Below, piece by piece: positions 29,735 through 33,112 of a stretch of DNA of 64,000 bases. The notes under the pieces are model-generated. The model was not told the DNA's origin and did not search any database. It was given only the letters and a program-made list of their open reading frames with translations. Source of the DNA: Escherichia coli (lineage in GTDB: Bacteria > Pseudomonadota > Gammaproteobacteria > Enterobacterales > Enterobacteriaceae); the NCBI RefSeq assembly GCF_048403405.1, contig NZ_CP183129.1; one strand, given 5' to 3'. A program made the position numbers and the translations under genes. Every line of letters begins with the position of its first letter. The stretch's first letter is position 1.

Positions 29735-30156
29735 CAGGCTTCTCCTGTAATGGTGCCGCCGATGCGGTGAGATTTACCGCGAAACAGCGCAACCGTTTTT
29801 TGTTGTTGGTTAACAATTTCGATGTCGTAAACACCGGTTTGCTTGCCCTGATGACGAACCTGCGCAGTAGCAGTTAAAGTGTCTCCGGCAAAGCCTGGAC
29901 GTAAAAAATCAATCGTGCAGGCAGAAGCGACGGCTGCCAGCCCCTGGCTATTGCAGGCGTAGGCAAAGGCAGTATCAGCCAGTGAAAATAGCTGCCCGCC
30001 GTGGCAACTTTGATGACCATTAAGCATTTGTGCAGTGACGGTCATGGTCACTACAGCAAAGCCTTCATCCATTGAGATAATGTCGATGCCAAGTGCTTTG
30101 GCGCAGGCATCGTTCTCATACATTGCATGGGCATTTTGCCAGGCCTTATGACTCAT
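29734..30156 (-). CDS. paaI: hotdog-fold acyl-CoA thioesterase PaaI
   Basis: 140 aa from MSHKAWQ. Confidence 0.9.
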   Translation of the reverse strand: MSHKAWQNAHAMYENDACAKALGIDIISMDEGFAVVTMTVTAQMLNGHQSCHGGQLFSLADTAFAYACNSQGLAAVASACTIDFLRPGFAGDTLTATAQVRHQGKQTGVYDIEIVNQQQKTVALFRGKSHRIGGTITGEA

Positions 30157-31573
30157 AACCGCTCTCCAGAAGCGCCCGTTGGCGCAGCAATGAACATGGG
30201 CGATAGCGTTCTTCGCCATAGTGATGTTGTAGGTTTTCCAGGAGCCTTAATATTCGCTGCCAGCCAAGTTGCGCTCCCCAGGCAAGCGGGCCATATGGAT
30301 AATTCACCCCAAGACGCATGGCGGTATCGATATCCTGCTCAGAGGCCACGCCTTTTTGCAGCGCATCGAGGGCTTCATTGATGATCATTGCTACCGTTCG
30401 CCAAATCAGCATTCCTGGGTAATCTGCAATTTGCAGCACTGTTTTGCCCTGCTGTTGCAGGTAATAAATGGCCTTGCGGGTCGCTGAGTCCGGGTTCACC
30501 GCTGCAGCAGCAATGGTCACCACCTTGCCCGCCATTTTGTCGATCACTACCACCGGGCGCGCCAGTCGTGTTGCCAGCGCCTGTGCCGTCTCGCCTTGTG
30601 TCTCAATCAATAAAACATCGTCAATTTCCGTGACACCGTCACTTTTATTTTCTACTTTCATAGGGCTAAAACTGTCGCTTACCGCTTCCAGGCCAACAAC
30701 TGCCTCACGTTCCGCGCGCCAGTCGTACACGCCCAGCCCACTTTTCTTGCCCAACCGTCCACCAATCACCAGTTCCTGTTGCACCAGCGAAGGTAAAAAA
30801 CGACGCTCCTGCCAGAAAGCGTTAAACACCGAACAGGTGACAGCAAAATTGACGTCCTGACCAATCAGATCGGTTAATTCCAGCGGCCCCATCGGGAAAC
30901 CAGCGCCATCGCGAAGCGCAGCGTCAATCACTTCTGGTGAAGCAACCTGCTCTTCCAGTGCCCGCCAGGCCTCGGAATAATAAGGACGCGCAACACGGTT
31001 AACGATAAATCCAGGGGTCGAATGACAGCGCACAGGCTGCTTACCCCAGCTCAACGTCAGTTCACCCAACTGCTCAACAACTTCCGCCGCCGTTGCCAGC
31101 CCACTGACCACCTCCACCAACTTCATGACAGGTGCCGGGTTAAAAAAATGCAGCCCCGCAACACGTTCAGGATTTTTTACCTCCGCAGCAATCGCGGTAA
31201 TAGAGATTGACGATGTGTTAGTGGTCAATAGCGTTTGTGGCGGGCAAACTTCTGCCAGTTGTGCAAAGAGCGCTTTTTTAACTTCCAGACGTTCAGACGC
31301 TGCTTCAATGACCAGCTCCGCTGCTGCCAGCGCGTGAATATCGGTCACCGGGATCAGGCGTTTCAATGTGCGTTCACAGGTTTCAGCGGTCAGTTTTCCC
31401 CGCTTTACTCGTGAATTCAGCCGCGCGTGTATCCCGTCGATTGCGCGGGTCAGCGCCTCAGCAGAAATGTCATACAGTAAAACCTGGTGTCCATGACTGG
31501 CAGCAACTTCAGCAATGCCTGCCCCCATGGTGCCACTCCCGATCACCGCCACAGTTTGCACATTTATCATCAT
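30146..31573 (-). CDS. paaH: 3-hydroxyadipyl-CoA dehydrogenase
   Basis: 475 aa from MMINVQT; Rossmann GSGTMGAGIA. Confidence 0.9.
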   Translation of the reverse strand: MMINVQTVAVIGSGTMGAGIAEVAASHGHQVLLYDISAEALTRAIDGIHARLNSRVKRGKLTAETCERTLKRLIPVTDIHALAAAELVIEAASERLEVKKALFAQLAEVCPPQTLLTTNTSSISITAIAAEVKNPERVAGLHFFNPAPVMKLVEVVSGLATAAEVVEQLGELTLSWGKQPVRCHSTPGFIVNRVARPYYSEAWRALEEQVASPEVIDAALRDGAGFPMGPLELTDLIGQDVNFAVTCSVFNAFWQERRFLPSLVQQELVIGGRLGKKSGLGVYDWRAEREAVVGLEAVSDSFSPMKVENKSDGVTEIDDVLLIETQGETAQALATRLARPVVVIDKMAGKVVTIAAAAVNPDSATRKAIYYLQQQGKTVLQIADYPGMLIWRTVAMIINEALDALQKGVASEQDIDTAMRLGVNYPYGPLAWGAQLGWQRILRLLENLQHHYGEERYRPCSLLRQRALLESGYES

Positions 31574-31574
31574 G

Positions 31575-32345
31575 CTATTTCCCCGTGAACTGCGGTGAGC
31601 GTTTAGCCAGGAACGCACTGACACCTTCACGATAATCTGCGCTCCGTCCGGCAAGCCGCTGATAGTCGCGTTCCAGATCCAGTTGCGTATCGAGCGTATT
31701 GGTTTCAGCGCTATTTATTGCTTGCTTGATAAGTCCAAGACCATATGTCGGTTGTGTCGCCAGATGCCGTGCCAGCTGTTGCGCGGTATCTGCCAGCGTT
31801 TCATCATTAACAACCTGCCAGATCATCCCCCATTCGTGCGCCTGTTCAGCACTCAGTTGATTCCCCAGCAGTGCCAGCCCCATGGCGCGCGCTCGCCCAG
31901 CAACGCGTGGCAGTAACCAGGTTCCACCGCAATCGGGTACTAAGCCTAACTTACTAAACGCCATGACGAATTTTGCTGAACGGGCAGCAATAACGATGTC
32001 GCATCCCAGTGCCAGTGTTGCGCCAGCCCCTGCCGCCACGCCATTGACTGCACAGATCACCGGTTTTGGTAGTTTTGCCAGGCGACGTACCAGTGGGTTA
32101 TAGAAACGCTCCACTGACATCCCTAAATCCGGTGCGGGGCCTGTGGGATCAACGTTACGATCGTTAAGATCCTGACCAGCACAAAATCCACGTCCGGCAC
32201 CTGTAATTAACAAGCAACGGATAGTGTCGTCGCGCTCGACCTGTTTCAGGCACTCTGCCAGTTGTGCGTGCATCTCATCATTAAGGCGGTTGAGCGTTAG
32301 TGTCATCACGCCCTTTTCTACATGACTGAGGATGAATTCCATCAT
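31575..32345 (-). CDS. paaG: 1,2-epoxyphenylacetyl-CoA isomerase (crotonase fold)
   Basis: 256 aa crotonase-fold protein; see finding on length. Confidence 0.85.
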   Translation of the reverse strand: MMEFILSHVEKGVMTLTLNRLNDEMHAQLAECLKQVERDDTIRCLLITGAGRGFCAGQDLNDRNVDPTGPAPDLGMSVERFYNPLVRRLAKLPKPVICAVNGVAAGAGATLALGCDIVIAARSAKFVMAFSKLGLVPDCGGTWLLPRVAGRARAMGLALLGNQLSAEQAHEWGMIWQVVNDETLADTAQQLARHLATQPTYGLGLIKQAINSAETNTLDTQLDLERDYQRLAGRSADYREGVSAFLAKRSPQFTGK

Positions 32346-33112
32346 TAGCGTCCTTTAAAGTCGGGCGTGCGTTTTTGTAAGAAAGCGGAGATGCCTTCAT
32401 GACGATCTTCTGTTGCCGCCAGCAAGGTGAATAACTGTCGCTCCTGGGCAAGTCCGGCTTGTAAAGCCACTTCCTGCGACTGGCGCAGCGCTTGCTTTGC
32501 CGCTTGTAAGGCCAGCGGCGAGTGACGTGCCATTTTCGATGCCAACTGTAAGGCGTATTCGAGGGTTAAATCTCTGGGGAATACGTCGCTAACCAGCCCG
32601 GCCTGCTGTGCTTGCTGGGCGGTGATACTTTCTCCGCTCAGCACCATTTTGCTGGCTAACGATTTACCGACACTACGGATTAAACGTTGCGTTCCGCCTG
32701 CGCCAGGCATGATGCCGAGAGTGATTTCCGGCAACCCAAAACGCGCGTTCTCTCCGGCAACCACCACATCGCACAACAATGCCAGTTCGCAACCCGCACC
32801 AAGCGCGTAACCATTGACGGCTGCGATGAGTGGTTTGTTAAAGGCCTGCAATCGCGCCCATAGCTGGGGACGTGTATCGTTTAAGGTGGCCGCGAGATCT
32901 TTTTCTGCCATTTCGTTGAGATCGGCCCCAGCGGCAAAAAAGCGTGCATTACCGGTAATCACACAGACCGAAATGCTGCTATCGGTAGCCGCAGCTTCCA
33001 GTTCATTTACCAGTTGCGTCAGAAGGGCATTATTTAGCGCATTACGTGCGGCGGGACGGTTAAGGGTCAGCAACAATACTCGTTGCTGACGGCTGACGAT
33101 CAGTTCGCTCAT
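32345..33112 (-). CDS. paaF: 2,3-dehydroadipyl-CoA hydratase
   Basis: 255 aa enoyl-CoA hydratase. Confidence 0.9.
   Translation of the reverse strand: MSELIVSRQQRVLLLTLNRPAARNALNNALLTQLVNELEAAATDSSISVCVITGNARFFAAGADLNEMAEKDLAATLNDTRPQLWARLQAFNKPLIAAVNGYALGAGCELALLCDVVVAGENARFGLPEITLGIMPGAGGTQRLIRSVGKSLASKMVLSGESITAQQAQQAGLVSDVFPRDLTLEYALQLASKMARHSPLALQAAKQALRQSQEVALQAGLAQERQLFTLLAATEDRHEGISAFLQKRTPDFKGR

What the first reader, a model, noticed from the sequence alone, without database searches (positions are those of the whole stretch)
32270..32300. PaaG is six residues shorter than I recall for K-12, at the conserved crotonase N-terminal motif
The predicted PaaG is 256 aa and reads …GVMTLTLNRLNDEMHAQ…, whereas crotonase-fold enzymes usually carry an NRP(E/D)xxNA(F/L) segment here and I recall K-12 PaaG as 262 aa. 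An 18-bp in-frame deletion in the oxyanion-hole-proximal region would be consistent with this and could affect activity. Both the recalled K-12 length and the motif argument are from memory.
Basis: inference. Interest (0 to 1): 0.3.

Follow-up and report, generated by a model that had tools for sequence, protein, structure and literature searches.

The report
Private 18-bp in-frame deletion in paaG
This E. coli strain carries a one-off 18-base in-frame deletion in paaG, a known phenylacetate-breakdown gene, which removes a highly conserved coenzyme-A-binding loop and probably cripples the enzyme; it is an ordinary strain-specific mutation, not a new kind of system.

Summary
The paaG ORF (window 31575-32345, minus strand) encodes 256 aa. 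K-12 MG1655 paaG encodes 262 aa. The window gene equals the allele of its closest relatives minus exactly 18 nt (gene nt 62-79, CGGAACGCCTGAACAGTT). The junction lies at window 32285|32284 and has no microhomology. The protein loses P21-S26, and the junction codon changes F27 to L (NRPERLNSFND becomes NRLND).

None of 3,122 paaG-bearing complete E. coli genomes carries the deletion, and a metagenome scan for the junction found nothing. The exact 256-aa protein is in NCBI (WP_418511261.1 / XPL98638.1) on one 5.47-Mb contig, so this is a deposited, singleton allele. Across 64 kb the window differs from three near-identical relatives by six SNPs and this one indel, so the event is recent.

The lost segment is the whole loop between strand beta2 and helix alpha1. 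It includes Pro21 and Asn25, which are at least 90% conserved in 100 homologues. It also includes Ser26, the counterpart of rat enoyl-CoA hydratase Ala60, which lines the adenine pocket of CoA. No full-length homologue among 125 representatives has a comparable gap.

The most likely reading is a recent loss- or reduction-of-function mutation. This is inferred, not measured. Interest is low.

The parts
31575..32345 (-). paaG allele with the 18-nt deletion: 771 nt including the stop, 256 aa. It encodes 1,2-epoxyphenylacetyl-CoA isomerase / 3,4-didehydroadipyl-CoA isomerase.
   Evidence: ORF. TIGR02280 score 451.6 bits against a cut-off of 345.15. Identical to the TUM14771 / isolate 68 allele apart from the deletion. 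The exact protein is WP_418511261.1 / XPL98638.1.
32284..32285 (-). Deletion junction. On the sense strand, ...AACCGCC|TTAATGATG.... The missing bases are CGGAACGCCTGAACAGTT (gene nt 62-79). This removes P21-S26 and creates a CTT (Leu) codon in place of F27.
   Evidence: The placement is unique and there is 0 nt of junction microhomology.
32345..33112 (-). paaF, the upstream gene, whose stop overlaps the paaG start. It encodes 2,3-dehydroadipyl-CoA hydratase, which forms the PaaF-PaaG complex. It is intact.
   Evidence: NF007239 score 485.7 bits. Identical to relatives, with no differences in the paa cluster other than the deletion. The PaaF-PaaG complex is described in PMC4498308.
25566..39012 (.). 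The rest of the paa cluster: paaY, X, K, J, I, H, G, F, E, D, C, B, A on the minus strand and paaZ on the plus strand. Apart from the deletion it is identical to isolate 68, where every gene is annotated intact.
   Evidence: Coordinates were mapped from the isolate 68 annotation through the full-length alignment. The only window-specific difference inside this span is the deletion.

Best explanation
A recent mutation private to this strain deleted 18 bp in frame from paaG in an otherwise intact phenylacetate (paa) catabolic cluster.

Shown:
- The deletion excises the entire connecting loop between strand beta2 and helix alpha1 (P21-E22-R23-L24-N25-S26) and turns F27 into L.
- Oxyanion-hole loop-2 (GFCAGQDL), the AAGAG helix start and the catalytic Asp (window D138 = K-12 D144 = Thermus D136) remain.

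Inferred:
- In crotonase-fold enzymes this loop forms one wall of the pocket for the adenine/3'-phospho-ADP part of CoA.
- Removing it most likely weakens or abolishes acyl-CoA binding, or destabilises the N-terminal spiral that packs on loop-2.
- That would make PaaG a null or strong hypomorph.
- PaaG acts at two steps: epoxide to oxepin-CoA, and 3,4- to 2,3-didehydroadipyl-CoA. The strain would therefore be expected to grow poorly or not at all on phenylacetate or 2-phenylethylamine.
- The epoxide would be handled by PaaABCE reverse deoxygenation and by PaaI.
- The paa cluster is absent from about 42% of complete E. coli genomes, so such a loss is easily tolerated.
For: Structure of the change:
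- A single 18-nt gap; the rest of the gene is identical to the closest alleles.

Private and recent:
- 0 of 3,122 paaG-bearing complete E. coli genomes match across the junction.
- There are 0 metagenome hits to the junction 30-mer.
- The exact protein is on a single 5,471,390-bp contig in NCBI.
- The window differs from isolate 68, strain 4621 and MS 69-1 by only 6 private SNPs plus this one indel in 64 kb.

Conservation:
- Among 125 near-full-length representatives of 50%-identity clusters, 119 have no gap in K-12 positions 12-36. Two have 1-2 gap positions there and four have 15-25, which I read as truncated N-termini but did not inspect.
- P21 is present in 119 and N25 in 119. None has a 6-residue internal gap.
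- R20, P21 and N25 are at least 90% conserved in alignment A3.
- The TIGR02280 score drops from 481.3 to 451.6 bits.

Structural role:
- The AF2 wild-type model (pLDDT 97.6) places residues 19-28 between strand 13-18 and helix 29-44.
- BLASTP aligns PaaG P21-S26 with rat ECH P55-A60. The rat sequence was verified identical to PDB 9RGQ.
- In rat ECH the adenine of CoA sits in a pocket shaped by Ala60, Ile100 and Phe279, and adenine binding sets up the oxyanion hole through loop-2 (PMC13126182).
- In DmdD, Lys31, Arg32 and Ala34 contact the CoA phosphates and adenine (PMC3660561). Their mapping to the motif was not verified.
- In the AF2 model of the deleted protein, pLDDT falls from 98 to 92 around the junction and from 98 to 90 over loop-2.

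Pathway role:
- PaaG acts at two steps, and the epoxide safeguards are described in PMC4498308 and PMC9493321.
- A paaG knockout in Pseudomonas donghuensis affects phenylacetate use (PMC10454607).
Against: No functional measurement is available. The reading frame, start, stop, catalytic Asp and oxyanion-hole motifs are intact. The protein still passes the PaaG equivalog cut-off by about 100 bits. AF2 still predicts a confident crotonase fold (mean pLDDT 96.5; TM 0.94-0.96 to 4FZW), although AF2 does not measure stability. The deleted stretch is a surface loop, and loop shortenings are sometimes tolerated. I could not inspect coordinates of 4FZW or 6SLB to confirm direct contacts in PaaG itself. 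Raw reads were not available, so an assembly error cannot be strictly excluded.
Confidence: 0.7

Rival explanations
1. The deletion is a sequencing, assembly or consensus-polishing artefact of the deposited genome. The living strain has the normal 789-nt paaG.
For: The allele is seen in exactly one deposited contig and nowhere else. The junction has no microhomology, which is not typical of replication slippage. Reads could not be examined.
Against: The rest of the 64-kb window has no other indel against three relatives, so the assembly is clean. An 18-nt loss in non-repetitive, non-homopolymeric sequence is not a usual long- or short-read error. Its length is a multiple of three.
Confidence: 0.1
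2. The deletion is real but functionally near-neutral. The shortened beta2-alpha1 connection is tolerated, and PaaG still binds its CoA esters through loop-2, the neighbouring subunit's C-terminal helix and the pantetheine contacts.
For: The catalytic Asp and oxyanion-hole motifs are retained, and the TIGR02280 score is well above cut-off. AF2 closes the gap with Leu21 taking the beta-bridge position of Phe27 and keeps the fold. Leu is the second most common residue at position 27 in homologues (39 of 125).
Against: No full-length homologue among 125 diverse representatives has a comparable gap in this loop, and Pro21 and Asn25 are nearly invariant. That argues for strong purifying selection on length and sequence. 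The counterpart of Ser26 lines the adenine pocket in rat ECH. The allele is absent from 3,122 other E. coli genomes.
Confidence: 0.15
3. The deletion is an adaptive, selected loss of PaaG function. For example, it might stop flux after ring epoxidation or alter phenylacetate-derived metabolites in a clinical host setting, rather than being a neutral accident.
For: The closest relatives are human clinical or colonic isolates. All four private SNPs in ordinary genes of the window are non-synonymous. Links between the paa pathway and virulence or stress are reported in other genera (titles).
Against: It is a singleton with no recurrence in 3,122 genomes. Blocking PaaG while keeping PaaABCE would tend to accumulate a reactive epoxide, so deleting the whole cluster would be the safer route. 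Four of four non-synonymous SNPs is not unusual for very recent, unpurged mutations.
Confidence: 0.05

Closest known systems
E. coli K-12 PaaG (b1394; PDB 4FZW chains C/D, PaaF-PaaG complex)
   Same: 98% identical over the aligned residues. It has the same operon position between paaF and paaH, the same catalytic Asp and oxyanion-hole motifs, and the same predicted fold (TM 0.94-0.96).
   Different: Lacks P21-S26 and has F27L. There are five further substitutions typical of its lineage: L53I, G121C, I142V, D186N and F207Y in K-12 numbering.
PaaG allele WP_000969771.1 of strains TUM14771, isolate 68 and 4621 (same clone)
   Same: Nucleotide-identical over all 771 shared positions.
   Different: Only the 18-nt deletion.
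Thermus thermophilus PaaG (PDB 3HRX, 6SL9, 6SLA, 6SLB)
   Same: A characterised orthologue, about 43% identical, with the catalytic Asp136 aligned to window D138. It has the same LNRPEKLNA loop as wild-type E. coli PaaG.
   Different: The Thermus enzyme keeps the loop and the window protein does not.
Rat mitochondrial enoyl-CoA hydratase (PDB 1DUB, 9RGQ-9RGU)
   Same: Crotonase fold, 32% identity. Its LNRPKALNA motif aligns without gaps with PaaG LNRPERLNS. Ala60 of that motif lines the adenine pocket.
   Different: It is a hydratase with two catalytic Glu residues, whereas PaaG is an isomerase with an Asp. The role of the loop in PaaG is inferred by homology.

Membership tests
[quoted passage not shown] | Whole-protein HMM score above the curated cut-off (345.15 bits) | tested here: met
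   451.6 bits for the window protein and 481.3 bits for the undeleted allele.
[quoted passage not shown] | Location in a paa cluster between paaF and paaH | tested here: met
   ORFs and family hits. The region is collinear with annotated paa clusters of K-12 and isolate 68.
[quoted passage not shown] | Catalytic Asp (Thermus D136) and oxyanion-hole elements (loop-2 FCAGQD and the AAGAG helix start) | tested here: met
   Window D138 aligns with Thermus D136 (D139 in the 6SLB chain, which carries 3 extra N-terminal residues). F54, G57, D59, G102 and G106 occupy conserved columns. The D136 role is described in PMC9493321.
[quoted passage not shown] | Isomerase activity on 1,2-epoxyphenylacetyl-CoA and 3,4-didehydroadipyl-CoA | not testable with these tools
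   Needs an enzyme assay or a growth test.
Crotonase (enoyl-CoA hydratase/isomerase) superfamily | Spiral beta-beta-alpha fold with a C-terminal helical trimerisation domain | tested here: met
   AF2 model with pLDDT 96.5. Foldseek gives TM 0.94/0.96 to 4FZW_D and E = 1.8e-43. This is a prediction only.
Crotonase (enoyl-CoA hydratase/isomerase) superfamily | Intact N-terminal NRPxxxNA loop (beta2-alpha1) forming part of the CoA adenine/phosphate pocket | tested here: not met
   P21-S26 are deleted. The loop is present at full length in 119 of 125 homologue representatives, and none has a 6-residue internal gap. Its role is taken from rat ECH Ala60.

The most novel reading that the evidence does not exclude
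The loop-less PaaG is stable and retains partial or altered activity, for example weaker CoA anchoring that changes the balance between its two reactions. Alternatively, its loss was selected in a human-associated clone because it redirects phenylacetyl-CoA epoxide into shunt products. Either way, this would be a natural experiment on how much of the crotonase ADP pocket is dispensable.
Probability: 0.05. Interest if true: 0.35.

Novelty: already known. Interest (0 to 1): 0.1.

Why it matters
It matters little beyond this strain. It predicts a simple phenotype: no or poor growth on phenylacetate or phenylethylamine, despite a paa cluster that is complete and that NCBI names as an ordinary PaaG. 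It illustrates that in-frame lesions in conserved loops pass automated annotation as functional genes. Metabolic models or pathway-presence surveys that count paaG as present would overcall the pathway for this genome. As enzymology, a natural deletion of residues 21-26 could serve as a probe of the CoA adenine-pocket loop in crotonases, but a designed mutant would do the same job.

Tried and rejected
- The look-up of encoding contigs for the exact 256-aa protein found no gene on record. The source record could therefore not be read, and its accession and isolate metadata remain unknown beyond WP_418511261.1 / XPL98638.1.
- A metagenome scan for the 30-nt junction gave 0 hits.
- The primary structural papers were not held: Grishin 2012 JBC, Hamed 2008 CMLS, Spieker 2019 ACS Chem Biol and Engel 1996 EMBO J. 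Direct PaaG-CoA contacts therefore had to be inferred from rat ECH through a sequence alignment.
- A literature search for E. coli 'paaG mutant' found nothing. The E. coli mutant phenotype (Ismail et al. 2003) rests on my memory only.
- I looked for a slippage mechanism. The placement of the deletion is unique and has 0 nt of microhomology. The only feature is a weak 9-nt periodicity (CTCAACCGC / CCGGAACGC / CTGAACAGT / TTTAATGAT). The mutational mechanism is left open.
- I considered that the window had been artificially edited. I rejected this because the exact protein exists in NCBI.
- AF2 modelling of the mutant cannot judge stability. I use it only to locate the loop and to note a modest local drop in pLDDT.
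- The mapping of DmdD residues Lys31, Arg32 and Ala34 to the motif was not verified, because I lacked the DmdD sequence.

Full report
**1. The observation**

The minus-strand ORF at window 31575-32345 encodes 256 aa and begins MMEFILSHVEKGVMTLTLNRLNDEMHAQ. It is PaaG, scoring 451.6 bits on the NCBIfam equivalog TIGR02280 against a cut-off of 345.15. The gene upstream is PaaF. K-12 MG1655 paaG (b1394) is 789 nt and 262 aa.

Alignments of the window gene with K-12 and with the closest allele (strain TUM14771) show one 18-nt gap and nothing else in the 5' region. A script confirmed that removing gene nt 62-79 (CGGAACGCCTGAACAGTT) from the TUM14771 allele reproduces the window gene base for base. 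It also confirmed that this is the only 18-nt deletion that does so. The junction therefore carries no microhomology.

The deletion is out of codon phase. It removes P21-E22-R23-L24-N25-S26 and fuses C+TT into a Leu codon where F27 stood. NRPERLNSFND becomes NRLND.

**2. How common it is, and whether it is real**

- 3,125 of 5,426 complete E. coli genomes have a paaG match. In 3,122 of them the match covers at least 80% of the gene. Every listed match spans 789 nt in its record. The best identity is 97.7%, which equals 771/789, so those alleles are identical apart from the gap.
- A 100-nt query centred on the junction found no contiguous full-length match. The best-ranked hits are two-piece or gapped alignments spanning 117-118 nt. 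The 197 hits in the 99%-or-better identity band match in number the 197 records that cover less than 80% of the query.
- An exact scan of the metagenome collection for the 30-nt junction found nothing.
- The exact 256-aa protein does exist in NCBI as WP_418511261.1 / XPL98638.1, on a single contig of 5,471,390 bp.

The window therefore comes from a real deposited chromosome, and the allele is a singleton.

Over the full 64 kb the window aligns end to end with isolate 68 (NZ_OX030728.1), with six mismatches and this single gap. The same six SNPs and the same gap also separate it from strain 4621. Five of the SNPs and the gap separate it from MS 69-1, whose alignment ends at window 53656, before the sixth SNP. 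These relatives themselves carry only 0, 2 and 1 private differences in this stretch.

The deletion is thus a recent event on a short private branch. The absence of any other indel argues that the assembly is clean. I could not see reads, so a residual chance of artefact remains, which I put at about 0.1.

**3. What was removed**

I searched 1.84 billion cluster representatives with K-12 PaaG and aligned the 125 near-full-length hits among the best 150, which are 41-65% identical to K-12 PaaG.

- 119 have no gap in K-12 positions 12-36. Two have 1-2 gap positions there. Four have 15-25, which I read as truncated N-termini but did not inspect.
- None has a 6-residue internal gap.
- Pro21 and Asn25 are each present in 119 sequences, and Leu24 in 98.
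- In the 101-sequence alignment A3, R20, P21 and N25 are among the columns at least 90% conserved, and the consensus reads TLNRPxxLNA.

An AlphaFold2 model of the wild-type protein (pLDDT 97.6) places residues 19-28 between strand 13-18 and helix 29-44. Residues 21-23 form a short turn and F27 forms a beta-bridge. The deletion therefore removes essentially the whole beta2-alpha1 connection.

**4. What the loop does**

This section rests on homology.

- BLASTP aligns PaaG residues 16-75 without gaps to rat mitochondrial enoyl-CoA hydratase residues 50-108. P21-S26 therefore corresponds to P55-A60, and PaaG Q64 to Ala98.
- A 2026 structural study of rat ECH reports that the adenine of CoA sits in a hydrophobic pocket shaped by Ala60, Ile100 and Phe279. 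It reports that the adenine N6 hydrogen-bonds to loop-2 (Ala96 and Ala98), and that this binding closes the oxyanion hole formed by the NH groups of Ala98 and Gly141 (PMC13126182). The same paper notes that this induced switch is not seen in enoyl-CoA isomerase.
- In DmdD, another crotonase, Lys31 and Arg32 bind the CoA phosphates and Ala34 stacks on adenine (PMC3660561). By their spacing these residues probably lie in the same motif, but I did not verify this.

The deleted loop is thus a wall of the CoA nucleotide pocket, next to but not part of the oxyanion hole. Everything else needed for catalysis is still encoded. Loop-2 (GFCAGQDL), the AAGAG helix start and the catalytic Asp are all present. 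Window D138 aligns with Thermus PaaG D136 in the alignment, and the role of D136 is described in PMC9493321.

**5. Likely consequence**

This section is inference. Three facts point to impaired CoA-ester binding or destabilisation of the N-terminal spiral, giving a null or strongly hypomorphic PaaG:

- two near-invariant residues and the adenine-pocket residue are lost;
- no natural homologue has a shortened loop;
- the TIGR02280 score drops by 30 bits (481.3 to 451.6).

The AF2 model of the deleted protein keeps the fold, with pLDDT 96.5 and TM 0.94-0.96 to 4FZW. It shows modest confidence drops at the junction block (98 to 92) and over loop-2 (98 to 90). This fits the packing argument but is not evidence of stability either way.

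PaaG is used twice in the pathway: epoxide to oxepin-CoA, and 3,4- to 2,3-didehydroadipyl-CoA (PMC4498308 and PMC9493321). A defective enzyme should therefore block growth on phenylacetate and on phenylethylamine, which feeds in through tynA and feaB, both present in the window. Toxic epoxide build-up is buffered by the reverse reaction of PaaABCE and by PaaI. paaG is needed for phenylacetate use in Pseudomonas donghuensis. The corresponding E. coli mutant data I know only from memory.

About 42% of complete E. coli genomes lack paaG altogether, so loss of the pathway is evidently tolerated.

**6. Rivals**

- Assembly artefact (about 0.1). Argued against by the clean 64-kb alignment and by the nature of the change.
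- Tolerated, near-neutral loop shortening (about 0.15). Supported by the retained catalytic motifs and by Leu being common at position 27. Opposed by the strict length conservation.
- Adaptive loss (about 0.05). It is a singleton with no recurrence.

**7. Comparison with what is known, and verdict**

This is PaaG, a well-characterised enzyme with solved structures (4FZW, 3HRX, 6SL9, 6SLA, 6SLB), in a standard paa cluster. The protein passes the family's sequence, context and predicted-fold tests. It fails one superfamily hallmark, the intact NRPxxxNA loop. It should therefore be filed as a mutated member, and probably not a working one.

The one correction is that the motif belongs to the CoA adenine pocket rather than to the oxyanion hole itself. 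Nothing here is a new kind of system. It is a private, probably inactivating, in-frame deletion. Interest is low (0.1).

Noticed in passing
window 1117, 2973, 5527, 11620, 21834, 58877: Six SNPs are private to the window strain against isolate 68, strain 4621 and, where it is covered, MS 69-1. They are hglS Q101R, trg A422T, one inside the IS150 transposase, W121L in a hypothetical protein (WP_001314706 family), ynbA A34T, and one intergenic site 14 nt upstream of IS200C tnpA. All four in ordinary CDS are non-synonymous. The relatives have only 0-2 private differences in the same 64 kb.
   Followed up: partly
window 53656 onward compared with L008 (MS 69-1): MS 69-1 stops being collinear with the window at about 53656. 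It has an IS1 upstream of ompN, and sitABCD plus prophage genes where the window, isolate 68 and strain 4621 have ttcA-dbpA-IS200C-zntB. This is a strain-specific insertion or replacement within the clone.
   Followed up: no
window about 62530-63984 (mapped from isolate 68, record 529485-530939): A DHA2-family MFS efflux permease gene next to a HlyD-family gene is annotated as frameshifted (pseudogene) in isolate 68 and strain 4621. The window is identical there, so it presumably shares the frameshift.
   Followed up: no
window 30146-31654 (-): The mechanical ORF list extends paaH upstream to a TTG at 31654, overlapping paaG by 80 nt. The annotated paaH start in relatives maps to window 31573, 2 nt after the paaG stop. 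This is an ORF-calling artefact, not a feature.
   Followed up: yes
window 32257 (paaG codon region) in L007: MS 69-1 carries its own single SNP in paaG, annotated as a different protein (WP_000969791.1), 27 nt from the deletion junction. It appears unrelated to the deletion.
   Followed up: no
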